NCBI GenBank assembly: GCA_043816785.1
Contig: JBDRHP010000061.1
Location: 1-22,304, forward strand
Direction of reading: 5' to 3'
DNA from: Candidatus Margulisiibacteriota bacterium
GTDB lineage: Bacteria > Margulisbacteria > WOR-1 > O2-12-FULL-45-9
DNA length: 22,304 bases
Part shown: positions 1,405 to 22,196 of the stretch, one piece after another
Position numbering within the stretch: the stretch's first letter is position 1
Layout: the number at the start of each line of letters is the position of its first letter
Notes under the pieces: generated by a model
Told to the model about the DNA's origin: nothing
Seen by the model: the letters and a program-made list of their open reading frames with translations, nothing else
The model's database searches: none
Program-made: the position numbers and the translations under genes

Positions 1405-4400
1405 CTATTTATGATAGTCCTGCAGCGCCTTAACCGTAAACCCCTTTTTCTTGACCGACTCCAGGCCATTAACAGTGGCGCGGGTGCCGGATAAAGTGGT
1501 CACGATCGGAATCATGTGCATTATAGCACCGGAGCGTATCTTAGTCTCATCCACCTTGGTCTTTTTATCTCCCGGTGTATTGATCAAAAGCTTGACCTCG
1601 CCGTTCTTGACCAGATCCAGGACATCCGGCCGGCCTTCGCCCAATTTGGCCACTGCCTCAACCTCCAGACCGTTCTTACGCAAAACTTCTGCAGTACCTG
1701 AGGTGGAGACGATCTGATAACCCAAAGCCGCAAGGCGCTTGGCTAACCCAACGATCTTGCGTTTGTCACGGTCATTGACCGAAACAAAAACCTTTCCCTC
1801 CAGGGGGATCTTCTGGCCGGCCGCGATCTGGGCCTTCATGTAGGCAACGCCAAAATCCGCATCGATTCCCATGACCTCACCCGTCGATTTCATCTCCGGC
1901 CCGAGCACCGGGTCAACCCCTGGAAAACGATTAAAAGGAAAGACTGCTTCTTTAACTGAAAAGTGCTCTGGAACAATTTCTTTCTCAACGCCTAATTCCT
2001 TAAATGATCTTCCAAGCATTACTTTTGTCGCAATGGTCGCCCAGGGCACACCAGTTGCTTTGCTGACATAAGGAGCAGTACGCGAAGCACGAGGGTTAAC
2101 TTCCAGCACATACAGTTTGCTGTCCTTGACCGCATATTGGATATTCATCAACCCCTTGACCTTCAGCTCCTTGGCCAGCGCCTGGGTCGCTTTTCTGATC
2201 TCTTCCAAAATGGTTTTAGAGAGAGAAAAGGTTGGGATAACGCAGGCCGAATCTCCGGAATGGATACCGGCTTCCTCAATATGCTCCATGATCCCACAAA
2301 TAACAGTTTTCTTGCCGTCAGAAACCGCATCAACGTCAATTTCGATCGCGTCATCCAGAAACTTATCTACCAGGATCGGCTTTTCCGGGGAAGCGATGAC
2401 CGCTTTCTGCATGTATTCTTCCAGGTCGCCTTCATCATAGACTATGACCATGGCCCGGCCGCCCAAAACATAAGAAGGACGCACCACTGCCGGATAACCA
2501 ATGCGTTTAGCGATCTTCTTGGCTTCGGCAAAAGAAGTGGCAGTCCCGTTAGCCGGCTGGGTCAGTTTAAGTTTCTTAAGCAGGGACTTAAAACGCTTGC
2601 GATCTTCCGCCCGGTCAATTGAATCGACCGAGGTCCCCAAGATCGGCACTCCAGCATCCTCCAGCTGGCGAGCCAGGTTAAGCGGTGTTTGGCCGCCAAA
2701 TTGAACAATAACGCCTTCTGGTTTTTCCTTCTCAACGATATGCAGAACATCTTCGCGGGTCAGTGGCTCAAAGTATAAACGATCAGAAGTGTCAAAATCA
2801 GTTGAAACTGTTTCTGGGTTAGAGTTAACCATTATCGATTCGTAACCTTCTTCTTTGATGGCGAACGAAGCGTGACAGCAGCAATAATCAAATTCAATGC
2901 CCTGCCCAATCCGGTTGGGCCCGCCACCCAGGACCATGATCTTTTTCTTGTCCGTGGCCCGGCATTCATCTTGGGAATTATCATAAGTCGAGTAGAAATA
3001 TGGTTTCATCGGGTCAAATTCACCTCCACAGGTATCCACCAGTTTATAAACCGGGGTGATTCCTTTTTTCTTGCGATGATCGTAGACCGCGACCTCGTCG
3101 CTGCCGATGAGATAGGCGATCTGGATATCGGAAAACCCGAGGCCCTTAGCATCCTTCAGCAATTTATCCGGTATATCAGCCAGCTTATGCTTGGCGACCT
3201 TCTCTTCCATTTCAAAGATCTCGCGCATCTGATTAATGAACCACGGGTCGATATTAGAAAGATCATGGATCTCTTGATCGCTCATGCCATTCTTGATCGC
3301 GTAACGCAGCCAGAAGATGCGGTCGGCGTTGGGATAGACCAGCTTCTGCTTGACCAGTTCTGCATCACCTGAAAGCTCTGGCGGAACATCCCGGCCATCC
3401 GCTCCTAATCCATATCGACGATATTCAAGTGAACGGATACCTTTTTGCAAAGATTCTTTATAATTGCGGCCAATTGACATGGCTTCACCCACAGCCTTCA
3501 TGGAAGTGGACAGGATCGGGTCAGCCTCCGGAAATTTTTCAAAAGTAAAACGACAAACCTTGAACACACAATAGTCAACTGTCGGCTCAAAGAACGTGTA
3601 GGTCTTGCCGGTCACCTGGTTGACGATCTCATCCAGCGACAGACCAATGGCTAATTTAGCCGCGACCCGGGCAATAGGAAAACCGGTCGCTTTTGAAGCT
3701 AAGGCTGAAGAGCGTGAGACACGCGGATTAATTTCAATAATTACTACTTTGCCATCATCAGGATTAACCGCAAATTGAATATTGGTGCCGCCGCCATTGA
3801 TCCCCACCGCCCGGATGATCTTCTTACACCAGTTCTCCAGGTCAACAAACTCTTCAGTGGTTAAAGTCTGGGCCGGAGCAACAACGATCGAATCCCCGGT
3901 ATGCACACCCATTGGATCGATATTTTCCATTGAGGTCACGATAACTACGTTATCCTTGCAGTCACGGATCACCTCAAACTCGACTTCTTTCCAGCCCAAC
4001 ACTGATTGCTCGACTAAAACTTGTTTGAGAGGGGAAACATCCAGCGCCAGCTCCAGTCCAGCCTTCAATTCATCAATATTATATGCGCAGGAGCCGCCCG
4101 CCCCGCCCATGGTAAAAGCAGGCCGCAAGATTATCGGAAAACCGATCTTTTCTCCCAGCACTAAGCCTTCTTCAACGCTAGTCGCAATACCTGACTCAGG
4201 CACAGCCATGCCAATGCTAGCCATGGTCTCTTTGAACTTTTTTCTGTCCTCGGCCCGCTCGATCGCCTTGGCATCTGCGCCAATGATCTCTACCCCATAT
4301 TTTTGCAAGATGCCTGCCTTGGATAAGAAAAAGCCCATATTAAGACCAGTCTGCCCGCCCAAGGTAGGCAGCAAAGCATCCGGTCTTTCCTTGGCAATTA

Positions 4401-4629
4401 TCTTTTCGATAAATTCCGGATCCAGGGGTTCAATATAAGTATGATCAGCCATGCCTGGATCGGTCATAATGGTGGCTGGATTGGAATTGATCAGGACTGT
4501 TTCGTAGCCTTCCTCTCTCAAAGCTTTACAAGCCTGTGACCCGGAGTAGTCAAACTCACAGGCAGAACCAATAATGATCGGTCCGGAGCTGATGATCAGG
4601 ATCTTTTTAATGTCTGTTCGTTTTGGCAT
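1405..4629 (-). CDS. carB: Carbamoyl-phosphate synthase large subunit
   Basis: 1074 aa. MPKRTDIKKIL...ACEFDYSG; two ATP-grasp halves (GVHTGDS, EINPRVSRSSALASKATG; GPNRIGQGIEFDY, GIHSGDS, EVNPRASRT); C-terminal MGS-like domain. RBS GGAGGGG upstream of the ATG. Confidence 0.98.
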   Translation of the reverse strand: MPKRTDIKKILIISSGPIIIGSACEFDYSGSQACKALREEGYETVLINSNPATIMTDPGMADHTYIEPLDPEFIEKIIAKERPDALLPTLGGQTGLNMGFFLSKAGILQKYGVEIIGADAKAIERAEDRKKFKETMASIGMAVPESGIATSVEEGLVLGEKIGFPIILRPAFTMGGAGGSCAYNIDELKAGLELALDVSPLKQVLVEQSVLGWKEVEFEVIRDCKDNVVIVTSMENIDPMGVHTGDSIVVAPAQTLTTEEFVDLENWCKKIIRAVGINGGGTNIQFAVNPDDGKVVIIEINPRVSRSSALASKATGFPIARVAAKLAIGLSLDEIVNQVTGKTYTFFEPTVDYCVFKVCRFTFEKFPEADPILSTSMKAVGEAMSIGRNYKESLQKGIRSLEYRRYGLGADGRDVPPELSGDAELVKQKLVYPNADRIFWLRYAIKNGMSDQEIHDLSNIDPWFINQMREIFEMEEKVAKHKLADIPDKLLKDAKGLGFSDIQIAYLIGSDEVAVYDHRKKKGITPVYKLVDTCGGEFDPMKPYFYSTYDNSQDECRATDKKKIMVLGGGPNRIGQGIEFDYCCCHASFAIKEEGYESIMVNSNPETVSTDFDTSDRLYFEPLTREDVLHIVEKEKPEGVIVQFGGQTPLNLARQLEDAGVPILGTSVDSIDRAEDRKRFKSLLKKLKLTQPANGTATSFAEAKKIAKRIGYPAVVRPSYVLGGRAMVIVYDEGDLEEYMQKAVIASPEKPILVDKFLDDAIEIDVDAVSDGKKTVICGIMEHIEEAGIHSGDSACVIPTFSLSKTILEEIRKATQALAKELKVKGLMNIQYAVKDSKLYVLEVNPRASRTAPYVSKATGVPWATIATKVMLGRSFKELGVEKEIVPEHFSVKEAVFPFNRFPGVDPVLGPEMKSTGEVMGIDADFGVAYMKAQIAAGQKIPLEGKVFVSVNDRDKRKIVGLAKRLAALGYQIVSTSGTAEVLRKNGLEVEAVAKLGEGRPDVLDLVKNGEVKLLINTPGDKKTKVDETKIRSGAIMHMIPIVTTLSGTRATVNGLESVKKKGFTVKALQDYHK

Positions 4630-4640
4630 GATTTCCCCTC

Positions 4641-5657
4641 CTATACCTTTTTATATCCCGGATCAAGTTTGCCTCGTTCATCGATCGGAAAATATAACGC
4701 GGCAACACAGCTGCCGTCCTTGGATTGGATTTTTTCGATCGTCTTGTCATTGAGATTGACGTGAACAACCTTTACTCCGCTGGGAACGGCTGTGATCCCG
4801 TAGCTGTGGTTTTGCACTGAGATCTCGCCCCTGCCGGTCTTGGTGTCAACCACGGGGTGGTTGACACCGTGGTGTCCGACCTTCATGCGGTCAACCGTGC
4901 ACCCAAGGGCCATGGCCAGGACACAGGCACCGTTCTGGATACCGTAGATAGAAACCTTGCCAATCAGCTTTTTGATCTCTTCGACCAGACCGGTCAGCTT
5001 TCTGGGATCACCCGGCCCGCTGGAGATGACCACCTGTTCCGGCTTCTTTTCAAGTATTTTTTCAGCTGTAACATTATGAGGAACCACTTTAGCCCCGGCG
5101 AACTTGGACAGCGTACTATTATTAACCCCCAGGTTGATGATAACAGTAGTTGTTCCGGGTTTGGCCTTGGGGCCTTCCATGCCAGAGGTTGTTTCCGCTA
5201 CCAGATCCGGAAGCTTATAGCCTTTTGCTTTGTTTACAAGACTTTCCTTATTAAAATCTTCAGTGGAAACGATACCTCTCATTTCCCCGTTGTCGCGGAT
5301 ATGGATAGTCAAGGCGCGGGTATCGATGCCTTCGATACCAATGACCTTGTTCTTTTTCATAAAATCATCAAGAGAACCCTTGGCCTGCCAGTTGCTGTAA
5401 ACCTTGCTGTATTCCTTAACCACAAAAGCCGAAGCATGGGCTTTATCAGACTCATTGCTGCGGTCATTGATCCCGGCATTGCCAACATGAGGATAGCCTA
5501 TGGCAAGGATCTGCTTAGCATAAGCCGGATCAGTCATAATCTCCTGAAAACCAACTACCTGGGTGTTAAAAACAACTTCCCCGGCCACTTCTCCTTCTGC
5601 CCCAAAAGAAACCCCTTCAAACATCGTTCCGTCTTCCAACGCTAAAACTGCTTTCAT
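4641..5657 (-). CDS. carA: Carbamoyl-phosphate synthase small subunit homolog with degenerate glutaminase active site
   Basis: MKAVLALEDG, GEVVFNT, TDPAY, GIDTRALT, SSGPGDP, GHHGVNHPV, QNHSY. Start at ATG 5657 with RBS AGGGAGG (338 aa). The catalytic motifs GICLG and HPE read GIQNG and FPI. Confidence 0.93.
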   Translation of the reverse strand: MKAVLALEDGTMFEGVSFGAEGEVAGEVVFNTQVVGFQEIMTDPAYAKQILAIGYPHVGNAGINDRSNESDKAHASAFVVKEYSKVYSNWQAKGSLDDFMKKNKVIGIEGIDTRALTIHIRDNGEMRGIVSTEDFNKESLVNKAKGYKLPDLVAETTSGMEGPKAKPGTTTVIINLGVNNSTLSKFAGAKVVPHNVTAEKILEKKPEQVVISSGPGDPRKLTGLVEEIKKLIGKVSIYGIQNGACVLAMALGCTVDRMKVGHHGVNHPVVDTKTGRGEISVQNHSYGITAVPSGVKVVHVNLNDKTIEKIQSKDGSCVAALYFPIDERGKLDPGYKKV

Positions 5658-5678
5658 GTTCTTCCTCCCTATTTTGGC

Positions 5679-5698
5679 CCTGCCTGCCGGCAGGCAGG
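5679..5698. repeat. Perfect 20-bp GC-rich palindrome (REP-like) CCTGCCTGCCGGCAGGCAGG
   Basis: The sequence equals its own reverse complement; it lies between the leader terminator and the carA RBS. Confidence 0.8.
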
Positions 5699-5699
5699 C

Positions 5700-5728
5700 A
5701 AAAAAAAACGCCCCTTTCGGGCGTCTTT
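5700..5728 (-). terminator. Intrinsic terminator/attenuator in the carAB leader
   Basis: Minus strand AAAGACGCCC-GAAAG-GGGCG followed by a run of 9 T; lies between the promoter and the carA start. Confidence 0.85.
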
Positions 5729-5731
5729 GCC
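5720..5731 (-). promoter_or_regulatory. Candidate ANTAR-binding RNA hairpin overlapping the terminator 5' arm
   Basis: GGC-AAAGAC-GCC: 3-bp stem and hexaloop with A at position 1 and G at position 4; mutually exclusive with the terminator stem; ANTAR gene adjacent. Confidence 0.65.
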
Positions 5732-5744
5732 ATTTAACATATAA

Positions 5745-5773
5745 ATTATACCAAAAACTCAAGCCCTTGTCAA
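5745..5773 (-). promoter_or_regulatory. Consensus sigma70 promoter of carAB
   Basis: TTGACA (5773-5768), 17 bp spacer, TATAAT (5750-5745), with extended -10 TG. Confidence 0.9.
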
Positions 5774-5774
5774 A

Positions 5775-6197
5775 CTAAAGCTCATAAGCAGAAAGGATCG
5801 AGTGCGCGATATCGCGCATAGAGCGGCCGGAATCCATGCTCTGTTCCTGGAGTTTTCGGTAAGCCTCAGTAGGCAGAATATCGAACTGAGCGATTAAGAT
5901 TTCCTTAGCGCGTTCAATAATCCTGCGGTCATCCAAAGCCTTTTGCAATTCCCCAACCTTCTTGCGTAATTTCCAGTTTTCTCGACGTATCTGATCATTG
6001 CTTCGCTTATCAGTTAATTTATAAATAGTTGCCCGAGCCTTACCTTCTTTTTTGATCAGACCTTGTTTAATAAGAGGTGCTATGAGCTGATTGATCCTGG
6101 CACGGGTCAAAGCTAAAGACTGCTGAAGCTCTTTTGTGCAAAGACTCGGATGCTGGGCCAATAATTTTAGAATTTGTTCCTGACGACTGTTCAGCAT
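5775..6197 (-). CDS. Winged-helix HTH + coiled coil + ANTAR domain regulator
   Basis: N-terminal LNSRQEQILKLL...ELQQSLALTRARINQLIAPLIKQGLIKKEGKARATIYKL (wHTH). C-terminal LQKALDDRRIIERAKEILI...EAYRKLQEQSMDSGRSMRDIAHSIL (ANTAR signature). Confidence 0.88.
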   Translation of the reverse strand: MLNSRQEQILKLLAQHPSLCTKELQQSLALTRARINQLIAPLIKQGLIKKEGKARATIYKLTDKRSNDQIRRENWKLRKKVGELQKALDDRRIIERAKEILIAQFDILPTEAYRKLQEQSMDSGRSMRDIAHSILSAYEL

Positions 6198-6203
6198 GCG
6201 CCA

Positions 6204-6232
6204 ATTATATCAATTTATCCCGAGCTTGTCTA
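6204..6232 (-). promoter_or_regulatory. sigma70 promoter of the wHTH-ANTAR gene, probably giving a leaderless mRNA
   Basis: TAGACA-17 bp-TATAAT with extended -10 TG; only 6 nt between the -10 and ATG 6197; no SD. Confidence 0.75.
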
Positions 6233-6332: not shown

Positions 6333-8792
6333 TTACTGAGAAACAGCATGCATCACTTCATCAACACCTATTTTTTCTCCGTAACTGATATGTATTTTAT
6401 TGTTTGAATCAATTACCAAAGAATTATAATATCCATTACCAGTGCTTTCTTCACCGCCTGGATCAACCGTCTGATACACCCAACTTCCAGATGTATTATT
6501 CATATATTTCAAAGAATTTTGATAACAATAACTTATATGAACTTTATTATTAGAGTCTACACCCAATGATGCATTAGCCTTATTTCCTGACGTATCAGCA
6601 AATCCCTGGGGTAATGCCTCAGTTATCCATCCTCCACTCATATTGGTTGCATATTTCCGAGAATTTGGTGAGCTTACCCCATAACTAATATGGGCCTTAT
6701 CATTAGAATCCAAAGACATTGAAACACCAATTGGAATAAGATTATTAAGATCATCTACTATTTCTTTCGGCCATGTTCTACCAACATTTTCAGTTGTGTA
6801 TTTTACTGCATGATTTGTTGTATCCCCATAACTAATATGCACTTCATCATTACTATCTAAAGCTATTGATGTGCCATATACATATACCGAATCAATTGTG
6901 GCTGTGCTCCAATTCCCCGAAGCGTTTCTTATGTATTTAAGTGAACGAGAAGAGTTGCTTTCATCTCCAGCGCAAGCAATATGTACTTTGCCGCTTGAAT
7001 CTACTGCAATAGAAAGATAGGATACCGGGGAGAGGTCAGGGAAAGTCCCCCCCTCTGTTACCCAGGCTCCAGAACTATTGGTTGCATATTTAAGAGCACG
7101 AGCAGTGTCAAGGTAACACACATGAGCATATCCATTTGAATCTACCGCTATCGATGGAGTAGATGCATTATTATAAGCATTTGAACTAATCGTTTCAGTA
7201 ACCCAACTACCAGACGCATTGGTTACATATTTTAGATCCTGATCAGATAAACCTTTATAGCACATGTGAACCTTGTTATTTGAGTCTACTGCGATTGCAG
7301 TTTGTGGTAAGTTTACTGAACCCACAGATTCTCTAACAAAGGGTACCCCCGCAGTTGTAAAACTCCACGTATAATCATTAGCTAAATCATTTCCAGACAA
7401 ATCTGCAATATCACCCTTATCAACTAAAACCGTATATGCCGTTCCCCCAGCTATTGGGTAATCATTGCTACGAGTTATAATATTATTATTAGAATTATAA
7501 GAAATGCTTCCACTGAACCACCCCTTATAAGCAGAAGATAGCTGAACCGAGGCCAAAGTTAACGGAGAATCATCTATCCCCTCACTAAAAGTTACGGTTA
7601 TATCCGTATCTTCAGACACTCCAGTTGCCCCACTTACAGGAGTTATAGAAGTTACCGTGGGTGGCGTTGTATCATCATGCGCTGCAGTTGCAAACGACCA
7701 ACTGTAGGGGCTTAACATACTATTCCCTACAGCATCTTTTACAGTCCTGTCCACGGCAACAGTATAGGCATGATTTCCATCAAGATCACTTAAAGGTTTA
7801 AATGTGGCAACAAATAAAGCGTCATTATAAACAACTGTTCCTAAAACATTGCTGGATCCGGAAACCACAATTGTATTAGTATTAATAGTAGAATCATCCA
7901 TTGCTTCCGAAAAACCTATTTTAATTTCTCTGTTTATATCAATCTCAGTTGCTCCACTAGAGGGGTAAGTTTTTACTACTGTCGGAGGGGTCGTATCTGC
8001 AGAACACGTTGTTGTAAACGTCCAACTATAGTTGCTTCCCATTTGATTTCCTACTACATCTGCTACGGTTGAAGCAACTGTTGCCACATAGGTTGTACAA
8101 AGATCTAAGTTAGAAGTTGGATCAAATTTTGCCGTTCTAGTGTTTTCGACATAGCTTACTGTTCCTGCAATCTGCGAGTTTGGCGATGATAAAATAAATG
8201 TAGAAGAACTGATCGTTGAGGTATCCATGTCCTCATCAAACGTTGCCGTCACATTTGTTCCTTGCGAAACACCGGTAGCACCATGAACTGGATATTCAGA
8301 TGATACATGGGGAGGCGCTGCATCTACTGTGCTAGATGTGGTAAACGACCACGTATAATCGCTTGCCATTTGATTCCCTGCTATATCCCTTACGGTGGAA
8401 GAAACTACTGCTGTATATGTAGTACTCAAAGCTAGATAGGATGTCGGGTTTATGGTAGCAATATAAGTAGTCGAGTCATAACTTACTGTTGCTGCAACTT
8501 GCCCTGATGAAGACGATAAAGTAAAAGAATTTGTGTCAATTGATGTTGGATCCAGATCTTCAGTAAAGGTTGCAATTACATTAATACCTATAGACACATC
8601 AGTTGCTCCACTAATAGGATAAACATCAGCAACTTGAGGAGGAGTTGTATCACCTCCTGGTACGACAACTTGCCCACATCCTCCACTTAAGTAAAAAGAA
8701 CCAAGACCTATTATCAGAATAAGTATGGCCCCAACACCAAGACTATAAACATGAGGCCTACGAAAGAAATTAAATATTTTTTCAATTAACAC
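6333..8792 (-). CDS. Secreted/membrane-anchored surface protein with 4 bacterial Ig-like (Big_5/SbsA-type) repeats and a C-terminal 7-repeat beta-propeller; possible lipoprotein
   Basis: GTG start with RBS AAGGAG. Hydrophobic N-terminus then LSGGCG. Four DxxPPxV...P..GAT.V...F.E..D...D..GN...Y.WSF(T/A)T repeats and seven (s)iavDSnnkvHisY repeats. Markedly AT-rich codons. Confidence 0.85.
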   Translation of the reverse strand: MLIEKIFNFFRRPHVYSLGVGAILILIIGLGSFYLSGGCGQVVVPGGDTTPPQVADVYPISGATDVSIGINVIATFTEDLDPTSIDTNSFTLSSSSGQVAATVSYDSTTYIATINPTSYLALSTTYTAVVSSTVRDIAGNQMASDYTWSFTTSSTVDAAPPHVSSEYPVHGATGVSQGTNVTATFDEDMDTSTISSSTFILSSPNSQIAGTVSYVENTRTAKFDPTSNLDLCTTYVATVASTVADVVGNQMGSNYSWTFTTTCSADTTPPTVVKTYPSSGATEIDINREIKIGFSEAMDDSTINTNTIVVSGSSNVLGTVVYNDALFVATFKPLSDLDGNHAYTVAVDRTVKDAVGNSMLSPYSWSFATAAHDDTTPPTVTSITPVSGATGVSEDTDITVTFSEGIDDSPLTLASVQLSSAYKGWFSGSISYNSNNNIITRSNDYPIAGGTAYTVLVDKGDIADLSGNDLANDYTWSFTTAGVPFVRESVGSVNLPQTAIAVDSNNKVHMCYKGLSDQDLKYVTNASGSWVTETISSNAYNNASTPSIAVDSNGYAHVCYLDTARALKYATNSSGAWVTEGGTFPDLSPVSYLSIAVDSSGKVHIACAGDESNSSRSLKYIRNASGNWSTATIDSVYVYGTSIALDSNDEVHISYGDTTNHAVKYTTENVGRTWPKEIVDDLNNLIPIGVSMSLDSNDKAHISYGVSSPNSRKYATNMSGGWITEALPQGFADTSGNKANASLGVDSNNKVHISYCYQNSLKYMNNTSGSWVYQTVDPGGEESTGNGYYNSLVIDSNNKIHISYGEKIGVDEVMHAVSQ

Positions 8793-11887: not shown

Positions 11888-13106
11888 GCTGACTATAATC
11901 CCAAGGCATGCCCGGTTTTCCCACGTCCTCAGAAATAAAGATTTTCTATTTCTCTGGCTTGACCAGCTCATGTCCCAATTAGCTGACAGGTTTCTGCTTT
12001 ACGTCTTGCTCGTCATTGCCTACGGCGCGACCAGGAGCAACCTGGGCGCCAGCCTGCCGCTGCTGGCCTTTGGCGGCTCCGCGGTCGTTTTCGGCCCGAG
12101 CGCCGGGGTCTTCGTTGATCGCTGGAACAAAAAGCTGGTCATGGTTATTGCCAATCTCCTGCGCGGCGCTTTGATCCTGCTCTTGATCCCGTTCATCGGC
12201 CACCACCTGGGCGAGATCTTCCTGCTCAGTTTTATAATATTTTCTGTATCGCAATTTTTTGCCCCTGCGGAAACAGCCAGTATCCCTACGTTGGTGGAAA
12301 AAAGGGATCTAATAGCAGCTAACTCCCTGTTCATGATGACCCTGATGGTTGCCTCGATCATCGGCATCGGAGCGGCAGCCCCATTGACCAATTTTTTTGG
12401 CATCAGAACGGTCCTGATCATTTCTGCCTCTTTGCATTTGACATCAACCTTGGCCACATTCATGATCTCTCTGAAGCACAAAAAGAAAAGTACCAGCCCC
12501 AGCTTAATGAACCTGTTCAAGGAATTAATCATGGGCCTAGAATACATCCGGCGCAAATCCATTATTCGCTTTGCTTTGGCCAAGCTGTTCTTTGCCACTG
12601 CAGTCCTGGCAACCATCTGCTTGTTAGCGGTTAGTTTTTCCGAAAAGATCTTAGGCATAGGAGCCAAGAACTTTGGCTACCTGATCCTTGCCGCTGGCAC
12701 CGGCATGGCCATAGGCGCCTTGTTCGTGGGCCGTTTTGGTCATCATTTCAAGAAGGACCGCCTGGCCCATCTAGGTTTTTTGCTGGCCGGCTGTTCCCTG
12801 CTCATCCTGGCCAATGCGCAGGACCTGTGGATCGTGCTGGCCACGATCTTTTTCCTTGGCGCAGGCAACGCCTTTATTGTTTCGCCGCTGCAGACGATAC
12901 TGCATGAAAAAGTCCCCCGATCGATCCGCGGCCGGGTCTTTGGCGTTCAAAATATGTTCATTAACTCAGCTTTTACTTTTCCTGTCGTAATCTTCGGCGA
13001 GCTGGCAGATCTGATCGGTTTACGCACCATCATCCTTGTGCTGGGCGCTTCTGTCCTGTTCAGCGGAGCGTTGGACACACTTGTATCTTTTTTCCAGCGG
13101 GATTAA
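11868..13106 (+). CDS. MFS transporter (DHA3/MFS_3-like, 12 TM)
   Basis: FLFLWLDQLMSQLAD, motif A (AGVFVDRWNKK), QFFAPA, GRVFG. Start uncertain (first ATG at 11868, overlapping DUF2892). Stop overlaps the convergent gene at TTAA 13103-13106. Confidence 0.9.
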   Translation: MLKPVNKLTIIPRHARFSHVLRNKDFLFLWLDQLMSQLADRFLLYVLLVIAYGATRSNLGASLPLLAFGGSAVVFGPSAGVFVDRWNKKLVMVIANLLRGALILLLIPFIGHHLGEIFLLSFIIFSVSQFFAPAETASIPTLVEKRDLIAANSLFMMTLMVASIIGIGAAAPLTNFFGIRTVLIISASLHLTSTLATFMISLKHKKKSTSPSLMNLFKELIMGLEYIRRKSIIRFALAKLFFATAVLATICLLAVSFSEKILGIGAKNFGYLILAAGTGMAIGALFVGRFGHHFKKDRLAHLGFLLAGCSLLILANAQDLWIVLATIFFLGAGNAFIVSPLQTILHEKVPRSIRGRVFGVQNMFINSAFTFPVVIFGELADLIGLRTIILVLGASVLFSGALDTLVSFFQRD

Positions 13107-14605
13107 ACAATCAGGTAATTAAAGAAGCATAATAAGATCACCAGGGCGATGATCATCCAAAGCAAATGAGTATTTAGGTTCCTGGCATGCAGTTGCCTCA
13201 TTTTGTTACAGCTGGCCACCAGGACATCAACCGACCGGTTACTAAGGCGGTCCAGGCTGAGAATATCCCACAGAGCTATGTTCTGGAGTCGGTCTGACCG
13301 GAGAACAAGCCAATAAATGCCTGAACCCAGTAAAATGACCAGCCCTGCGTCAAAAAATAACCAGAAGCTCCATAAGTTCTTGTCCAACACCAACCCGACC
13401 GCTGAAGCAACATAGCCCAGGACCGGCTGAGCCATAAGTCCGACCACCAGACAACCAGCGGCCAAAAGCAACATTGGCAGGACCATCAGCCAGGGAACTT
13501 CTTTGGTTTGCTCAAGCTTGGCCGGCAGCTCTCCCAGAAACGCGCCGCAGAACAACTTAAGCATCAAAGCGAACGTGCCGGCAGAGGTCAGGACAAGAAC
13601 GACCTTCAAGGCCGGGGCTGCCGAAGCGGCCGCGGACAAAAGAGCCTTGCTGGCAAAACCGTTAAAAGGCGGGATCCCGGTAATGGCCAAAGCGCCAAAA
13701 GCAAAAGCTAGCGTGGTCAAAGGCATGCGCTGCCCTAAGCCGCCCAGTTTGTCCAGATCACGTTCACGCGTAGCAAAAATGATCGCGCCAGCACAGAGAA
13801 AGAGCAGCATTTTGAACATGGCATGGTTAAGCATATGGAACAAGCCGCCGCTCACCCCTAACCCAGTCGCCAGGCCAAAACCCAGCACAACATAACCCAT
13901 TTGGCTGATGCTGCTATAAGCCAGCAATTTTTTTATATTGGTCTGCTTTAAGGCCAGGACCACGCCAAAGAGCATGGAAATAGCACCAGCCCAGACCAAG
14001 GTTGAGTTGATCAGACCCAGGACGAACATCAGACGCAGCACACCATAAGCCCCGATCTTTATGGCAATGCCGGATAAGAGAGCTGAGATCGGCGACGGCG
14101 CGACCGGATGAGCCTCCGGCAGCCAGATATGGAACGGCACTGTCCCCACCTCGAACAAAAAACCGATCAGGAACAAACCAAAGATCAGTCCCAGCTTGGC
14201 CTGAGGCAAAGTAGAAGCAACATTGGCAATAGCGGCCAGATCAAATGTGCCGGTCAGGTTATACAGCATTAACGAGGCCAGCAACAGGAACAGTCCGCCC
14301 AAAAACATCATTAAGATATACTTAAAACCAGCGGGAAAGGACTCTTTCTTGGTGTTGTCAATGATCAGGAAATATATGCCGACTGTCATGATCTCCAGGA
14401 ACACATAAAGAGTTAAAAGGTCCCTGGCCAGCACTGATCCGACCATGCCAATTAAAGCAAGCAAAAGAACAAAATAATAGCGAAAGAAGTTCCGGCGCAC
14501 GTAAGCCAGTGAATAAACAAAGACCATGGGAAATAGACAGGCGATCATGATCAACATGAATTTGCTTAGGCCATCGATCGGCCACATTGGCACAGTAAAG
14601 ATCAT
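13103..14605 (-). CDS. Second antiporter-like subunit (MrpD/MrpA/NuoL-M family) of the Mrp-type complex
   Basis: YVFLEIMT, PFHIWLPEAHPVAPSPISALLSG, KKLLAYSSISQMGY, HMLNHAMFK, GIPPFNGFASK. Start at ATG 14605 by ATGA overlap with the upstream stop. C-terminal amphipathic segment plus a final TM helix. Confidence 0.9.
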   Translation of the reverse strand: MIFTVPMWPIDGLSKFMLIMIACLFPMVFVYSLAYVRRNFFRYYFVLLLALIGMVGSVLARDLLTLYVFLEIMTVGIYFLIIDNTKKESFPAGFKYILMMFLGGLFLLLASLMLYNLTGTFDLAAIANVASTLPQAKLGLIFGLFLIGFLFEVGTVPFHIWLPEAHPVAPSPISALLSGIAIKIGAYGVLRLMFVLGLINSTLVWAGAISMLFGVVLALKQTNIKKLLAYSSISQMGYVVLGFGLATGLGVSGGLFHMLNHAMFKMLLFLCAGAIIFATRERDLDKLGGLGQRMPLTTLAFAFGALAITGIPPFNGFASKALLSAAASAAPALKVVLVLTSAGTFALMLKLFCGAFLGELPAKLEQTKEVPWLMVLPMLLLAAGCLVVGLMAQPVLGYVASAVGLVLDKNLWSFWLFFDAGLVILLGSGIYWLVLRSDRLQNIALWDILSLDRLSNRSVDVLVASCNKMRQLHARNLNTHLLWMIIALVILLCFFNYLIV

Positions 14606-16068
14606 GGCGCCAGCACCTTGACCGCGGGCTCGATCAGGCTCAGGACCACACCAGGAAATAATCCGACCAAAAGACACAAAGCGGCAAAAACATAGGTTGA
14701 AAAATGCTCAAAAGGCCCGACTGGTATCGGCACAAAATCAGGTTTTTGCTTAAAATCTTCTTGAGAAAAAAATGTCTGGATGACCCGGAAGAAATAAGCC
14801 GCGGTCAAAAGTATGCCAAAAAAAACAAAGGCCAGCAGAAAGTAGTTCTGCTTCTGCAGCACGGCCTCAATAATGAACAATTTACTGGCAAACCCATTGA
14901 ACGGCGGGATGCCGATCACGGCCAGCGCCAAAGCGCAAAAAGCAATAGTCATGCCAGGCATTTTCCGCCAGACACCCTTCATCTGATCGATCCGCCAGAA
15001 ACCTGTTTGGGAAATAATAATACCAGCACAGAAAAATAACCCTGTCTTGATCAGCGCATGGTTGAAGATATGGAACAATCCGCCCTGAAAGCCAATACTT
15101 GAACCCAAACCAATGGCGATCAGGATAAAGCCGATCTGATTGATGCTTGAAAAAGCCAGCAGCTTTTTGAGCTCATCCTGGGCCAGGGCCAGACAAGCAC
15201 CGACAACCAGGGTAATAACACCTAAATACGTAAGGATACTGCTCATGCCATCCATAAAAATGGTCGAACCAAAAAATAAAAAGAAGACCCGCAGTATGGC
15301 GTACAAGCCGACTTTGAGGATCAAACCTGAAAGCAAACCGCTGACCGGGGTCGGCGCCTGGGAATGTGTTTCAGGGATCCAGGTATGCATGGGAAAGATG
15401 CCGCACTTAACGCCAAAAGCGGTCAGCATCAGGGCAAAGATCAAATAGACGACATGAGGATTAGCTTGATAGATGCCGGGGATCTGCGCGGCTATCTGGT
15501 CCATGTTCAAACTACCCGTCAGACCATAAAGCAAGGCAATGGCCAGCAAAAAAAGCACCCAGGCTGATTCGGTCATGATCAGGTATTTAAAACTTGCCTT
15601 GATCGCCCGGTCCTTGTGTTTATAAGTCACCAAAACGTAAGAAGCCACGGCCAGGACCTCAAAGAAAACGTACATATTGAATATATCACGGGTCAGTACG
15701 ATACCCAAAATACCTGCCAGAGCGACCAGTAGCAGCGAATAATATCTTCTGGCATATAAATAGGTGCCCAATGAATAAACAACGATCAATAGACCGATGC
15801 CCAGGACAAGACTGGCAAAGAAGAAGCTTAAACCATCCACCTGCAGACTGATGCCAACTGGCGGCGGCCAGCCGCCCAGATCATATTTAATAACTTCACC
15901 GGAAAAAATCTGAGGAACAAGCATCAGCAGAAAAAAAAGCGACGAGCCCAGACCGGTAACAGCCACAAGTTCCGCACCTCTTCTTAAAGGCGTGTATTTG
16001 GTCAAGTGGGTCAAGAAAGCTGCCAGCAATGGCAGCACAATTATAAGGATTGCCGCATGCCCGATCAT
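14602..16068 (-). CDS. mrpD: Mrp-type Na+/H+ antiporter subunit D (MbhH-like)
   Basis: GGWPPPVGISLQVDGLS, DIFNMYVFFEV, KCGIFPMHTWIP, KKLLAFSSINQIG, NHALIK, PPFNGFASK. Confidence 0.92.
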   Translation of the reverse strand: MIGHAAILIIVLPLLAAFLTHLTKYTPLRRGAELVAVTGLGSSLFFLLMLVPQIFSGEVIKYDLGGWPPPVGISLQVDGLSFFFASLVLGIGLLIVVYSLGTYLYARRYYSLLLVALAGILGIVLTRDIFNMYVFFEVLAVASYVLVTYKHKDRAIKASFKYLIMTESAWVLFLLAIALLYGLTGSLNMDQIAAQIPGIYQANPHVVYLIFALMLTAFGVKCGIFPMHTWIPETHSQAPTPVSGLLSGLILKVGLYAILRVFFLFFGSTIFMDGMSSILTYLGVITLVVGACLALAQDELKKLLAFSSINQIGFILIAIGLGSSIGFQGGLFHIFNHALIKTGLFFCAGIIISQTGFWRIDQMKGVWRKMPGMTIAFCALALAVIGIPPFNGFASKLFIIEAVLQKQNYFLLAFVFFGILLTAAYFFRVIQTFFSQEDFKQKPDFVPIPVGPFEHFSTYVFAALCLLVGLFPGVVLSLIEPAVKVLAP

Positions 16069-16397
16069 TTATCCTCCAGGATCTTGTCAACATTTAGGGT
16101 TTTATACTTGTCATATATCCTTATGGCCAAGGCCAGCGCCAAAGCGGTAATACCAAGCCCTATTACCAAACTCGTCAGCATGACAGCCTGCGGCAGCGGA
16201 TCAACGATCAGTTCTTCTGCGCCCTCTAATATAGCCGCGCGGCCGCCTGCAATATAGCCGATACTGATAAAAAGAAGAATGACACCTGAATTCATCAGGT
16301 AAAGCGACATGATCATCTTGATCATATTGCGCTTGCTCAATATCCCGTAAAGACCGACCAGGACAACAATAACGCCCAAGGATATCCCGTTTATCAT
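16065..16397 (-). CDS. mrpC: Mrp antiporter subunit C (NuoK/MbhG-like)
   Basis: GLYGILSKRNMIKMI, DPLPQAVMLTSLVIG; ATGA overlaps on both sides. Confidence 0.93.
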   Translation of the reverse strand: MINGISLGVIVVLVGLYGILSKRNMIKMIMSLYLMNSGVILLFISIGYIAGGRAAILEGAEELIVDPLPQAVMLTSLVIGLGITALALALAIRIYDKYKTLNVDKILEDK

Positions 16398-16816
16398 AAT
16401 TTATGCCTCACTGTGCGGTAAAAGATGACTGCGATCCCGGTGCCGACCATAAAACCAATGGTCAGGTTAAGCAATAGGATCAGGCCGGTGCTCGGCACAG
16501 TGCCAATCTCGCCCCGCGGCAGGAAATCTGACAGAAAAGAATAGCCCATGAACATGCCGGCAAAACCAAGCAGGATAAAAATGATCATGCCGATGTTCTT
16601 GGTCAAGGAAAGCAGATTTTCGTGAAATCTTTTTTCAGCATTGCGCACGCCGTCGACCAGACCGAGCAGGATAATGGCTGAGCCAATAATAACACCACCC
16701 TGGAAGCCGCCGCCGGGCGACAAATGGCCGTGCGAGATCAGATAACAGCCGTAAAGCAGGATAAAGGGGAAGAGCTTTCTGGTCAAGGTCCTGACTATAG
16801 TGGATCTTCTATCCAT
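16394..16816 (-). CDS. mrpB: Mrp antiporter subunit B (MnhB/MbhF-like)
   Basis: HGHLSPGGGFQGG motif; start placed at ATG 16816 (MDRRSTIV) after RBS AGGAG. Confidence 0.9.
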   Translation of the reverse strand: MDRRSTIVRTLTRKLFPFILLYGCYLISHGHLSPGGGFQGGVIIGSAIILLGLVDGVRNAEKRFHENLLSLTKNIGMIIFILLGFAGMFMGYSFLSDFLPRGEIGTVPSTGLILLLNLTIGFMVGTGIAVIFYRTVRHKL

Positions 16817-17081
16817 CGGGCTCTCCTTTTTTGAGCTTGCGCAGCAGCATGTATACGCCCAGGGCTGAAGCAAAAAAGACCGTGGCCTCTCCCAATGTGT
16901 CATAAACACGGTAATTCAGATAAATCGCCGTGACCAGGTTAAGAGCGCCGGTCTCAGCAACGCCGTTAGCCACATAATATTCTGATATTCCAGAACGAGG
17001 GCGGCCGTAATCCAGCTGGACCGCGTTCAGGATAAAATATCCCAGTACGATCAAAACGACCACTATCAGGATGCGTTTCAT
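16809..17081 (-). CDS. MbhE-like subunit (stand-alone MrpA/MrpB-related segment)
   Basis: ETGALNLVTAIYLNYRVYDTLGEATV matches the NxVTAIxxxYRxxDTLGE signature. Confidence 0.85.
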   Translation of the reverse strand: MKRILIVVVLIVLGYFILNAVQLDYGRPRSGISEYYVANGVAETGALNLVTAIYLNYRVYDTLGEATVFFASALGVYMLLRKLKKGEPDG

Positions 17082-17308
17082 TCCTCATGCCTCCTGGTCT
17101 TGCTGATCGCCACAACAAAAAGGACCGTGGAAACACCCGCGCCGATCGCAGCTTCCGCGATCGCAATATCCAAAGCATGCAATCTAAAGAATAATAAGGT
17201 CAGCACCAGACTGAAAGCAGCTAAAACAATAGCCGCATTGAGCAGATCTTTCATTTCAATGGCCACTATCGCGGTCAGGATCAATACTAGATAGAAGATC
17301 TCGTTCAT
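17078..17308 (-). CDS. MbhD-like / DUF4040 subunit
   Basis: DLLNAAI...ALDIAIAEAAIGAG (APDVAxTEAxVGAG-type motif), 3 TM helices. Confidence 0.85.
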   Translation of the reverse strand: MNEIFYLVLILTAIVAIEMKDLLNAAIVLAAFSLVLTLLFFRLHALDIAIAEAAIGAGVSTVLFVVAISKTRRHEE

Positions 17309-17610
17309 TGCTTTTTGTCCTTCTGCTGCCAGGGTTTGATGCCGGATTCCAAGGCACCCCGCGCTATGACATGGGAAGCGACCGGGCTGGTGATCAAAAT
17401 AAATAAGGATATCAGGGCCAGCCTCAAGGTCAGGGCAGAAAGACCGGAATAGATCATCAAACCAATAAAGATCGACAAGCCCCCTGCTGTCCCACCCTTG
17501 CCTGCCGGATGGATCCTGGTATAAAGGTCAGGGAACCTGATCAAGCCTATTACGCCAAAAGTCAGGAAGAACAAGCCAAGAATAAAAAATCCATAAGCTA
17601 ACCAGATCAT
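17305..17610 (-). CDS. mrpG: Mrp antiporter subunit G (MbhC-like)
   Basis: GLIRFPDLYTRIH, TSPVASHVIARGA. Confidence 0.92.
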   Translation of the reverse strand: MIWLAYGFFILGLFFLTFGVIGLIRFPDLYTRIHPAGKGGTAGGLSIFIGLMIYSGLSALTLRLALISLFILITSPVASHVIARGALESGIKPWQQKDKKQ

Positions 17611-17870
17611 TTATGCAGCTCCCTCCCGGTCAGATATTTTGATATAGCAATTACGGAAACGTAGCCAAGGATAGCGTAAACCAATGCCACGTCAAAATAG
17701 ACATGGCGTTCAAACTCAACCGCCAGGGTAGCGATTATTACAGTGATATTGAGCACGAGCAGGTTTAAGCCGATCAAACGGTCAAACGGGGTTGGTCCAA
17801 TAAATACCCGCATCAGACAGACCAGCGCGGTCAGTGAAAGAAAAAAGACCATGGCTGAGAGCGGATTCAA
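17607..17870 (-). CDS. mrpF: Mrp antiporter subunit F (MbhB-like)
   Basis: RVFIGPTPFDRLIGL, YFDVALVYAILG; TTG start overlapping the mrpE stop, RBS GGAGGA. Confidence 0.9.
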   Translation of the reverse strand: MNPLSAMVFFLSLTALVCLMRVFIGPTPFDRLIGLNLLVLNITVIIATLAVEFERHVYFDVALVYAILGYVSVIAISKYLTGRELHK

Positions 17871-18379
17871 TAGAATATCCTCCCTAATTGCGCCTCAAAA
17901 TTGCCCTTGATCTGCTTGGCCGCCTGGTTAGAATCGCTGGTATCCATGACTAGCCAGTGTACGAACAGTTCATCATCCTTCAGATCGATCGCGACTGTGC
18001 CGGGGGTCAAGGTGATCGAATTCGCCAGAAGCGCTCGGCCCAATTTAGAACCCAGCTTGGTCTTGATCTTGATGATGCCCGGATTGATCTTCATAGTAAT
18101 GACGCGGTAAACAACATTGAAGCTGCCCAGATATATTTCCCAAAGCAATATCAGCAGGTAGAAAATAAAGAGTTCAAACCTGGGCAGGATGCCCCGCTGG
18201 ACCTTTTCTTCCTTCTCAATGAACAAGTCATATGTAGCCAGAGCAATGACCAGGGAAAAAGCCCCGCCCAAAAGAAGCGAGAAGGGATCAAGGCTAAAAG
18301 TGAACAAATACCACAACAACATGAGAAAGATAAAGGTAATTATAATACTGTTAATTTTTTCCAGCTGTCCAATCTTCAT
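17867..18379 (-). CDS. mrpE: Mrp antiporter subunit E (MbhA-like)
   Basis: INPGII, LANSITLTPGT, LFVHWL; ATG at 18379. Confidence 0.93.
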   Translation of the reverse strand: MKIGQLEKINSIIITFIFLMLLWYLFTFSLDPFSLLLGGAFSLVIALATYDLFIEKEEKVQRGILPRFELFIFYLLILLWEIYLGSFNVVYRVITMKINPGIIKIKTKLGSKLGRALLANSITLTPGTVAIDLKDDELFVHWLVMDTSDSNQAAKQIKGNFEAQLGRIFY

Positions 18380-18386
18380 TGGCAAG

Positions 18387-18404: not shown

Positions 18405-19436
18405 TCAAGCGCAGAGATTGAGATCCCTGACTAAACCCACCAACCGGTTGTAACTCTGTCGGTCAAATTTAAAACAGATGCGCGGCTTCTCCAGCAATTC
18501 TTTGGCGCGAACCTCAGCTGGAATCGGCCCGCAAGGCTTGATCTCGCCAGACATAATATCAGCGTATTTTTGACTTAAGCGAGCCAGGTCAGCGGCCGCC
18601 ACTTTTTGATTTAAGCGAATAACAGTCAGGCCCCGCCCATATCTGATCGAATGATAAACCCGATAAAAATCCTTGATCTCCTTGACCGCTGCCTGGACCG
18701 AGCCAACTATTTTGAAAAGGCCCAGATCGGTCTGAGTGATAAAGCCGCCGGGCAAAAGTTCATTTTTAACAAACCTTAACCAGTTCTTCCAATAAGACAT
18801 ACCCGGCGCCTCGACCATGACCACCGGCCGCGGCGTGCACTTACCAGTCTGCATCAGCGTCAGCACTTCAAAACCTTCGTCATGTGTGCCAAAGCCGCCT
18901 GGGAACAAGACCGTGGCATCAGATTCTTTGATAAAAGCCAGCTTCCTGGTGTAGAAATATTTAACATTGATAAGTTTTTCTCCGCGGGCCACGTAAGGAT
19001 TGGCTTCCTTTTCCAGCGGCAGCTTGATCTTGACCGCAAAACCCTTTTTGCCCGCGCCTTTATTGCCAGCCTCCATCACCCCGCCGCCTCCGCCAGTAAT
19101 GACCAGGTAATCGTGCTTGACCATTTCGCTGGCAAACTCTTCAGCCATTTTGTACTCTAGGCTATTTTGCGGGCTGCGGTGCGAACCAAACATAACCACT
19201 TTTCGTTTGTCGCGGTACTTGGTAAATACACGAAAGATATGGCGCAGTTCTTTGAGCGTGTTGGTGACCAAATAAAGATCACGTTCATCCGCGCCGTCCA
19301 GGTGAAGTTTTATTACTGTGGTAAAAAGGTCATGAATGTATGCTCGGGTTTGGGGCAAGCTGTATGCTTTGGCCAGCTGGTCAATTTCCCGGTCAATATT
19401 TATATTACCAACTTTATACGACTTTTTGTCCTTCAT
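18405..19436 (-). CDS. LOG family (TIGR00730-like) nucleotide phosphoribohydrolase, long form
   Basis: MFGS, ITGGGGGVMEAGNKGA, YFYTRK, PGGFGTHDE, LMQTGK. Start at ATG 19436, overlapping the upstream gene by 23 nt. Confidence 0.9.
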   Translation of the reverse strand: MKDKKSYKVGNINIDREIDQLAKAYSLPQTRAYIHDLFTTVIKLHLDGADERDLYLVTNTLKELRHIFRVFTKYRDKRKVVMFGSHRSPQNSLEYKMAEEFASEMVKHDYLVITGGGGGVMEAGNKGAGKKGFAVKIKLPLEKEANPYVARGEKLINVKYFYTRKLAFIKESDATVLFPGGFGTHDEGFEVLTLMQTGKCTPRPVVMVEAPGMSYWKNWLRFVKNELLPGGFITQTDLGLFKIVGSVQAAVKEIKDFYRVYHSIRYGRGLTVIRLNQKVAAADLARLSQKYADIMSGEIKPCGPIPAEVRAKELLEKPRICFKFDRQSYNRLVGLVRDLNLCA

Positions 19437-22108: not shown

Positions 22109-22196
22109 AATCTCTAATGCCCTCACCCCAATTTATTCTTAATTGAATATTATTCTTTTATGACCCCTCTCCCAGAGGAGGGTGTCCAATAACACT

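What the first reader, a model, noticed from the sequence alone, without database searches (positions are those of the whole stretch)
4641..5657. CarA has lost its entire glutaminase triad while the gene stays intact: candidate ammonia-dependent bacterial CPS
Seen: the nucleophile elbow reads YGIQNGAC (Gln codon at 4935-4937), the end of the domain reads ALYFPI (4683-4691), and FNTSMTGY reads FNTQVVGF. The ORF is uninterrupted, has a strong RBS and stops 11 nt before an intact carB; GIDTRALT, GPGDP and QNH are kept. Known: class I glutamine amidotransferases need Cys-His-Glu (E. coli CarA FGICLGHQ with Cys269, and HPE with His353/Glu355); ureotelic CPS1 lost the Cys and uses free ammonia. Inference: several multi-base replacements concentrated on catalytic positions argue against sequencing error. 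The subunit is probably a structural, ammonia-channelling or sensing partner, a bacterial parallel of CPS1.
Basis: partly seen in the sequence, partly recalled or inferred. Interest (0 to 1): 0.85.

Follow-up and report, generated by a model that had tools for sequence, protein, structure and literature searches.

The report
Carbamoyl-phosphate synthetase with two front ends
The small subunit here has lost its glutamine-splitting residues, so its enzyme likely runs on free ammonia; the genome's normal glutamine-using small subunit sits beside only half a large subunit and likely borrows the missing half from this same gene, through a predicted hidden start site in its middle.

Summary
Observation confirmed. 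CarA* (4641-5657) has Gln, Phe and Ile at Cys269, His353 and Glu355. Gln269 is fixed in 86 of 86 relatives (named hits are Saganbacteria/Margulisbacteria) and dN/dS is 0.06-0.10. Its partner CarB* keeps the catalytic residues checked (except E208) but has a rebuilt ammonia tunnel, so an ammonia-using CPS is likely. This scan reported dead CarAs before on other DNA, including this lineage.

New here: the genome also has a canonical carA, paired with an intact gene for only the N-terminal half of CarB, and no free C-half was found. In 65 class genomes, all 24 half-genes occur with either CarB* (13) or a free C-half (11), never neither. Six of those 11 free C-halves group with CarB*. Omnitrophota repeat the pattern.

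carB* holds a conserved hidden signal at the half boundary: a Shine-Dalgarno site, a 3-codon UUG micro-ORF and an overlapping in-frame AUG (Met541). It is the top synonymous-conservation window of the gene. Best reading: one C-half serves an ammonia front end and a glutamine front end. Against: only 13 of 27 carB* carry the signal, and nothing was tested biochemically.

The parts
4641..5657 (-). carA*: CPS small subunit without the glutaminase triad, 338 aa
   Evidence: dN/dS 0.06-0.10 in 5 pairs
4935..4937 (-). Gln codon at the Cys269 nucleophile position
   Evidence: Gln in 86 of 86 relatives
4683..4691 (-). F-P-I in place of H353-P-E355
5547..5570 (-). FNTQVVGF; S35Q at a tunnel position (role of S35 recalled)
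1405..4629 (-). carB*: full-length large subunit, 1074 aa; both ATP-grasp sites intact, ammonia-tunnel/interface residues changed (T232, M234, V249, E265)
3020..3027 (-). hidden Shine-Dalgarno GGAGGTGA in the Gly535-Gly536-Glu537 codons; strongest SD in front of any of the 63 in-frame ATG/GTG/TTG codons of carB*
3006..3017 (-). +1-frame micro-ORF (TTG, two codons, TGA), 5 nt after GGAGG; its stop overlaps the in-frame ATG (ATGA)
1405..3009 (-). predicted internal product from Met541: 534-aa C-half (carbamate-phosphorylation and allosteric domains)
   Evidence: inferred; not observed
5745..5773 (-). sigma70-type promoter, 12 of 12 consensus
   Evidence: -10 box conserved in 18 aligned leaders
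5720..5731 (-). ANTAR-type hairpin, 3-bp stem and hexaloop with A1 and G4, overlapping the terminator's 5' arm
   Evidence: 54 of 54 cells paired; middle pair 9 G-C, 9 A-U
5704..5728 (-). intrinsic terminator in the carA* leader
5775..6197 (-). winged-helix + ANTAR protein, 140 aa, no sensor domain found; the only ANTAR match in the genome
   Evidence: directly upstream of carA* in 38 of 46 locus rows, some redundant

Best explanation
CarA* has lost its glutaminase triad and likely serves as the structural lid of an ammonia-using carbamoyl-phosphate synthetase with full-length CarB*, and the C-terminal half of CarB* is likely also made on its own from a predicted hidden start (Met541) to complete the genome's glutamine-using CarA + half-CarB pair. 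Shown: the sequences, their conservation, the gene layouts and the trees. Inferred: (1) ammonia enters CarB* from solvent past the rebuilt interface (about 0.8); (2) CarA plus the N-half CarB (G000:C57, after amtB-glnK-glnA-gltBD) needs and uses the CarB* C-half, forming an Aquifex-like three-chain enzyme (about 0.6); (3) here that C-half arises by initiation at the out-of-frame UUG, stop after three codons and reinitiation at the overlapping AUG, or by direct initiation at that AUG (about 0.5). The cell would then switch nitrogen donor by swapping the front end on one shared back end. An ANTAR antiterminator likely sets the level of carA*-carB*; its signal is unknown.
For: CarA*: Gln269 86 of 86, His353 0 of 86, pocket and tunnel rebuilt; dN/dS 0.06-0.10. 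CarB*: 11 of 11 keep the checked catalytic residues of both sites apart from E208 (Q8, K2, E1), while T232, M234, V249 and E265 are fixed in 11 of 11; the 22 half-genes keep C, I, T and R there. Layout: 65 class genomes give 17 with carA*; 13 of these have carA + N-half and no free C-half; 11 others have N-half + free C-half and no carA*; none has an N-half without a C-half source. Family search shows exactly three CPS-type ATP-grasp matches in 5 of 5 such genomes. Half-gene dN/dS is 0.07 or lower in 2 pairs. Free C-halves of six genomes (G053, G054, G056, G057, G059, G060) sit in one clade with CarB* C-halves (SH 98). In Omnitrophota, 6 of 6 free C-halves tested nest among dead-CarA-linked CarBs at two places, and all N-half genes of both phyla form one clade (SH 96). 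Hidden start: GG(A/G)-GGT in 10 of 13 Met-bearing genes against 1.24 expected, 0 of 13 in genes without the Met, and 2 of 115 at other Gly-Gly sites, with 4-fold sites near saturation (median identity 0.36). Codons 536-544 are the top of 1066 windows (z 4.2; the true start z 2.9) with no peak in 13 ordinary CarBs. The +1 TTG with a stop overlapping the ATG is in 12 of 13, and the T-ending codon it needs is in 13 of 13 against 8.4 expected.
Against: No biochemical, RNA or protein evidence. Only 13 of 27 carB* junctions carry Met541. G010, G028 and G039 have a half-gene but no strong start near the junction; G021 and L179 have a different one. Four of five Omnitrophota genomes with the same layout have no such start, so internal initiation cannot be the general route. 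The Met rows are mostly one clade (4 changes on the tree), so the counts are not independent. GGAGG lies 13 nt from the ATG, against a mode of 7 in this genome (2 of 102 at 13) and about 21 against an optimum of 13-14 on the scale of PMC9841429. Genes without the Met also show a junction peak (z 2.9). The AU test does not reject CarB* C-halves as a clade without the free ones (p 0.11). No internal promoter was found, so the C-half would depend on the ANTAR-controlled transcript even when the glutamine route is needed. Genomes are incomplete MAGs (G000 87%).
Confidence: 0.52

Rival explanations
1. Two independent enzymes: CarA*-CarB* uses ammonia, and CarA + N-half CarB works alone as a homodimer of halves. 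The hidden SD is a pause or structure signal.
For: The two halves of E. coli CarB are described as functionally equivalent (PMC6245113, section 8), and a 41-kDa M. smithii CPS works as a dimer (PMC6022934, passages). 14 of 27 carB* lack Met541. SD-like sequences with long spacers slow translocation (10.1101/2020.04.16.045807, abstract). A small hairpin is predicted over the SD.
Against: None of 24 N-half genes in the class lacks a C-half source, and where the dead-CarA module is absent a free C-half of that lineage is kept, in two phyla. Aquifex needs CPS.A + CPS.B + GLN for the full reaction (PMC6022934, passages). A pause needs neither an invariant Met-Lys at an otherwise polar, variable position nor the +1 UUG.
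Confidence: 0.17
2. The C-half is shared, but after translation: full-length CarB* is cut in the linker, or its own N-half is displaced by CarA + N-half (domain swap). The hidden start is a later add-on in one clade.
For: Explains G010, G028, G039 and four Omnitrophota genomes that have the layout but no start. Fits all co-occurrence and tree data.
Against: No conserved cleavage motif was apparent in the linker by eye (not tested formally). In this genome a strong initiation signature is present.
Confidence: 0.17
3. Ammonia relay: CarA + N-half acts as a regulated glutaminase or carbamate source that releases ammonia into the cell, which CarA*-CarB* then uses; no physical sharing.
For: Needs no new assembly. 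carA and the half-gene follow glnA-gltBD in most loci examined.
Against: Wastes ATP. The half-genes keep all checked carbamate-tunnel residues. It does not explain free C-halves or the hidden start.
Confidence: 0.08
4. CarA* still supplies ammonia from glutamine or another amide with a relocated active site (Cys at 273, His312), or binds a nitrogen signal.
For: Cys at 273 in 81 of 86 and His312 in 86 of 86; the replacements Q35, Q269 and S313 are invariant, which suggests a selected new surface.
Against: Position 273 is not invariant (I4, G1); His353 and Lys202 are absent in all 86; related dead CarAs have other residues at these positions.
Confidence: 0.06

Closest known systems
E. coli CarAB (glutamine-dependent CPS II; PDB 1a9x, 1jdb, 1c30)
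   Same: Fold, two-gene layout, both ATP-grasp active sites, about 34% and 55% identity.
   Different: Triad and glutamine pocket absent; tunnel and interface residues changed in both subunits; second N-terminal module in the genome.
Vertebrate CPS1 (ammonia-dependent CPS I; PDB 5dou, 5dot)
   Same: Inactive glutaminase-like moiety kept; bulky residue at the G293 tunnel position (Gln318 in human, PMC4655335 passages; V/M/I here).
   Different: Two chains, not fused; whole triad lost rather than only the Cys; N-acetylglutamate dependence not tested; likely an independent origin (no tree with CPS1 was built).
Aquifex aeolicus split CPS (GLN + CPS.A + CPS.B; PMC6022934, passages)
   Same: Canonical CarA plus an N-half-only CarB gene; 11 class genomes have this three-gene layout.
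   Different: Here no free CPS.B gene was found; the only C-half lies inside a second, full-length CarB.
In-frame internal initiation products such as E. coli ArcB-C (10.1101/520783, passages) and termination-reinitiation at ATGA overlaps (PMC6728339, abstract and passages)
   Same: Start at a domain boundary with SD and raised synonymous conservation; ATGA overlap.
   Different: A 3-codon out-of-frame ORF buried in the gene would feed the in-frame start, and the product would complete a different enzyme complex.
ANTAR antitermination (EutV, NasR, AmiR; PMC3369931, passages)
   Same: Hexaloop with A1 and G4 on a 3-bp stem overlapping a terminator; ANTAR gene next door.
   Different: Only one hairpin seen, not two; the regulator is winged-helix + ANTAR with no sensor domain found.

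Membership tests
CarA / class I glutamine amidotransferase (active) | CPSase_sm_chain + GATase fold | tested here: met
CarA / class I glutamine amidotransferase (active) | Nucleophile Cys269 and His353 (Glu355) | tested here: not met
   Gln, Phe, Ile; Cys269 0 of 86 and His353 0 of 86
CarA / class I glutamine amidotransferase (active) | Glutaminase activity | not testable with these tools
   needs assay
CPS I (ammonia-specific, NAG-dependent) | Inactive glutaminase-like moiety | tested here: met
   (by sequence)
CPS I (ammonia-specific, NAG-dependent) | Single fused polypeptide | tested here: not met
   two ORFs 11 nt apart
CPS I (ammonia-specific, NAG-dependent) | N-acetylglutamate as essential activator | not testable with these tools
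   the allosteric domain keeps S948, K954, T974, G976, T977, T1016, T1042 as in E. coli; no NAG-site comparison made
CPS large subunit (active) | Catalytic residues of both ATP-grasp sites | tested here: met
   11 of 11 CarB*, except E208; residue roles recalled
Split CPS of Aquifex type | Separate N-half gene with intact site and true stop | tested here: met
   G000:C57:16391-18028, 545 aa, same end in relatives
Split CPS of Aquifex type | Separate C-half gene | tested here: not met
   not found in G000 (87% complete) or in 12 other genomes of this layout
Gene with in-frame internal start | Conserved start codon, SD and synonymous constraint at a domain boundary | tested here: met
   for the 13 Met-bearing genes only
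Gene with in-frame internal start | SD at working distance from the start | tested here: inconclusive
   13 nt to the ATG (long), 5 nt to the +1 TTG
Gene with in-frame internal start | Product or initiating ribosomes observed | not testable with these tools
   no such data at hand
ANTAR target RNA | Hexaloop A1/G4 hairpin overlapping a terminator | tested here: met
ANTAR target RNA | Two tandem hairpins | tested here: not met
   no conserved upstream hairpin in 18 aligned leaders, judged by eye; the hairpin starts about 14 nt after the -10 box

The most novel reading that the evidence does not exclude
One carB gene builds two carbamoyl-phosphate synthetases: read in full it makes an ammonia enzyme with a dead small subunit, and a buried three-codon ORF restarts ribosomes at mid-gene to make a free back half that docks on a separately encoded glutamine front end. 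Repeated loss of the ammonia front end then leaves Aquifex-type split enzymes, so this layout is a living intermediate of gene fission.
Probability: 0.42. Interest if true: 0.88.

Novelty: new variant of a known kind. Interest (0 to 1): 0.72.

Why it matters
Reviews state that glutamine is the physiological donor for all bacterial CPSases (PMC6245113, section 8). A conserved ammonia-type CPS would break that rule, and databases mislabel it as glutamine-hydrolysing. The shared C-half would be a new way to switch a core enzyme's nitrogen donor: two front ends on one back end, in at least two phyla. It gives a testable route for how split CPS genes arise, and a compact natural case of micro-ORF-driven internal reinitiation. 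All parts can be tested in E. coli with four genes.

Tried and rejected
Sequencing error or pseudogene: rejected. Missing C-half as an assembly gap: unlikely over 13 genomes, but none of them is closed. Internal promoter within 450 nt upstream of Met541: none at 8 of 12 or better in 12 genes. -1 frameshift: no conserved slippery heptamer by eye. +1 frameshift of the prfB type (SD, 3 nt, UUU; geometry recalled): fits in spacing but re-pairing on UUG is poor and the codon varies; kept as a minor route to the same product. CsrA control of the SD hairpin: csrA not found in G000 (87% complete). An ANTAR regulon: of 16 loose matches genome-wide, the carA* leader was the only one I judged a leader terminator. 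My terminator pairing for the alignment was out of register (64% paired; 87% when slid by two columns). My first idea that CarB* is simply a chimera: the AU test rejects one clade of all dead-CarA-linked C-halves (p 2e-81), but the wider tree also allows the ordinary full-length CarBs of this class to be the mosaics, so I claim only that the halves have different histories. Free C-halves starting at the Met541 peptide: none among 25 hits inspected of 120 listed. Expression: no RNA holder listed. The genome-contig scan returned mostly canonical CarAs and covered 8 of 64 parts. No complex prediction was sent, because halves of a split gene tend to pass by likeness to the E. coli structure. Literature: searches listed no paper on this lineage or layout (judged from listings; most subscription papers are not held). 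The M. smithii paper was not available; bioRxiv supplements were not seen.

Full report
1. Observation. Against E. coli CarA, the 86 near-full-length relatives among hits P0001-P0090 have Gln at Cys269 (86 of 86), no His353 and no Glu355. They also share S35Q (86), K202N/S (86), S47A (70), Q273C (81), G313S (86), Q351L (86) and G293V/M/I (80). The 35 canonical comparison sequences were picked by their triad motif, so their triad counts are circular; at 293 they have A, G or S. Named hits are Saganbacteria/Margulisbacteria. dN/dS is 0.059-0.095 in five pairs. A model of modest quality (pLDDT 68, 22 sequences) matches E. coli CarA best. With the motif columns removed, CarA* forms a clade (SH 100) inside a wider dead-CarA group that includes Omnitrophota, Planctomycetia and Thermodesulfobacteriota loci (SH 89-92), apart from this class's canonical CarAs; dead CarAs of Firmicutes and one archaeon fall elsewhere. 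66 of 135 cluster representatives examined lack Cys269, a set biased by the query.

2. The partner. CarB* (1405-4629) keeps the checked residues of both ATP-grasp sites and of the carbamate tunnel in 11 of 11 genomes, apart from E208 (Q8, K2, E1) and Q22 (S in 3, including this one). Changes cluster where ammonia enters and where the small subunit docks: T232, M234, V249 and E265 in 11 of 11, D258 and Q262 replaced in 11 of 11. T232-M234-V249 recurs in most dead-CarA-linked CarBs of the other phyla. The roles of these E. coli residues are recalled (C232 gate, R265 tunnel wall). PMC4655335 (passages) states that Gln318 at the G293 position blocks the ancestral tunnel of human CPS1, and that blocked or perforated E. 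coli variants lose activity with glutamine. An ammonia-using enzyme is therefore likely. That Gln269 mimics the acylated, activated state is a recalled-chemistry guess.

3. G000 has a canonical carA at C57:14753-15838, after nifA-like, amtB, PII, glnA, gltB and gltD genes, followed by a DUF559 gene and a 545-aa carB that stops at the end of the oligomerisation domain. No free C-half was found by tblastn or family search. Among 65 class genomes (motifs and stops checked in 22, 27, 72), 17 carry carA*. Thirteen of these have carA + N-half and no free C-half (G000, 010, 021, 024, 026, 027, 028, 031, 033, 034, 039, 061, 062; carB* is split over contigs in G024, G027 and G028 and broken by frameshifts or Ns in G021). 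G043 has a full canonical carAB in tandem. G009 (94% complete) has only carA*-carB*. G063 (51%) and G032 (77%) are uninformative. Eleven genomes without carA* have N-half + free C-half. I left out G042, whose CarB is split across two contig ends. In G033 and G010 the order is carA, N-half, ANTAR gene, carA*, carB* in one run. All 22 complete half-genes keep the catalytic residues (E208 in 21) and the canonical interface, with dN/dS 0.07 or lower in two pairs.

4. Trees. CarB* N-halves group with dead-CarA-linked CarBs of other phyla (SH 98). CarB* C-halves lie among this class's C-halves, in one clade with the free C-halves of six genomes (SH 98); the other free C-halves lie outside it. One clade of all dead-CarA-linked C-halves is rejected (p 2e-81); a CarB*-only clade is not (p 0.11) (36 rows, quick LG+G4 trees). 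In a sample of 111 genomes of the phylum of an Omnitrophota genome (13 matches unlisted), five have canonical-type N-half + dead-CarA-linked full CarB and no other match (G065, 073, 129, 147, 159), and seven have N-half + free C-half; genes were read for these five and for six of the seven free C-halves. All six nest among dead-CarA-linked C-halves, at two places, and all N-half genes of both phyla form one clade (SH 96). The simplest reading is that the N-half has long borrowed its C-half from the dead-CarA enzyme, and that loss of the ammonia front end repeatedly left a free C-half.

5. A hidden start. carB* has an in-frame ATG at Met541 (window 3009), 26 codons before the first conserved motif of the C-half. 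Its SD (3027-3020, dG -15.2) is the strongest in front of any of 63 in-frame start codons and stronger than the true starts of carA* and carB* (-11.9, -11.3). Thirteen of 27 carB* junctions have this Met. In them Gly535-Gly536 is GG(A/G)-GGT in 10 of 13 (1.24 expected from each gene's codon use), against 0 of 13 without the Met and 2 of 115 at other Gly-Gly sites; four-fold sites are near saturation. Codons 536-544 are the top synonymous-conservation window of 1066 (z 4.2, 12 genes); 13 ordinary CarBs show no peak, but genes without the Met show z 2.9, and a second peak at 563-576 is common to both. GGAGG is 13 nt from the ATG, which is long (PMC9841429 passages give an optimum that corresponds to 5-6 nt). 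Five nt after GGAGG stands a +1-frame TTG whose 3-codon ORF ends in a TGA overlapping the ATG, in 12 of 13; the T-ending codon is in 13 of 13 (8.4 expected) against 8 of 14 (7.5 expected). A uniform scan finds this coupled layout in 10 of 13 Met genes, 0 of 14 other carB*, 1 of 10 Omnitrophota dead-type and 0 of 24 other full-length CarBs. ATGA overlaps support termination-reinitiation (PMC6728339, abstract and passages), and in-frame internal starts at domain boundaries are known (10.1101/520783, passages). Against: the Met genes are mostly one clade (4 changes). Of 12 half-gene genomes with a visible junction, 8 have the Met, G021 has another strong in-frame start, and G010, G028 and G039 have none. 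Four of five Omnitrophota cases have none. So the hidden start is at best one lineage's solution.

6. Regulation. A 12-of-12 promoter, a terminator and an overlapping A1/G4 hexaloop hairpin precede carA*. The stem is paired in 54 of 54 cells with a 9:9 compensatory pair. The genome's only ANTAR match lies directly upstream, as in 38 of 46 locus rows (some redundant). Known ANTAR targets have two hairpins (PMC3369931, passages); I saw one. Whether the operon rises in high or low nitrogen is open. If the C-half is shared, it must be expressed in both.

7. Known and new. It works like CPS I in donor (inferred) and like the Aquifex split enzyme in its glutamine route (PMC6022934, passages), but fails a defining feature of each. 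This scan had already noted dead CarAs, including this lineage with its ANTAR gene. Searches of its notes for the half-gene or an internal start showed nothing, though I saw only a few lines of each note and two titles mention a 'full-length' carB. Six paper searches listed nothing on this layout.

8. Verdict. Observation confirmed; ammonia-type enzyme likely (0.8); shared C-half likely (0.6); hidden start as the route here about even (0.5). New variant of a known kind, interest 0.72.

Noticed in passing
L017:15813-16381 (G000:C57): A DUF559/Vsr-like nuclease gene (124 aa) sits between carA and the half-carB, framed by two identical 34-nt palindromic repeats upstream and inverted copies downstream; it looks like a recent mobile insertion, as most relatives have the two genes adjacent.
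   Followed up: partly
window 5672-5705: Short palindrome between the terminator and the carA* RBS, also in L160 but absent from the near-identical L159 leader: a REP-like insertion.
   Followed up: partly
window 6197-6232; L042, L043, L044: The ANTAR gene and three free C-half genes have a -10-like box 6-7 nt before the ATG and no clear SD, suggesting leaderless mRNAs in this class.
   Followed up: no
L055, L056, L072, L078 (G057, G004, G019, G012): A divergent extra full-length CarB (about 55% identity) with Y261Q, Q262K/D and R265Q, and no extra carA found in these genomes: possibly a CarA-free ammonia-using CarB.
   Followed up: partly
L184:5644-9927: Sister-lineage dead CarA + CarB whose C-half groups with the free C-half of G052 (SH 98): a second independent pairing of the ammonia front end with a C-half.
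   Followed up: partly
L006 (G009): 94%-complete genome in which only carA*-carB* was found, next to PII, amt, nrpR, gdh and glnA genes: candidate ammonia-only CPS organism.
   Followed up: partly
window 19414-21302: Two tandem alanine-dehydrogenase/transhydrogenase-like genes (318 and 311 aa), both far below family cut-offs, next to a 275-aa ORF (21299-22126) with no Pfam or NCBIfam match.
   Followed up: no
window 13103-18385: Mrp/Mnh-type antiporter subunit genes split over both strands in two facing groups.
   Followed up: no
window 6333-8792: 819-aa probably exported protein with four Big_5 Ig-like domains and a repetitive C-terminal part, upstream of the ANTAR gene.
   Followed up: no
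L087, L088, L089, L094, L110, L132: Further triad-dead CarAs in Firmicutes and an archaeon that do not group with CarA*, consistent with repeated independent loss.
   Followed up: partly
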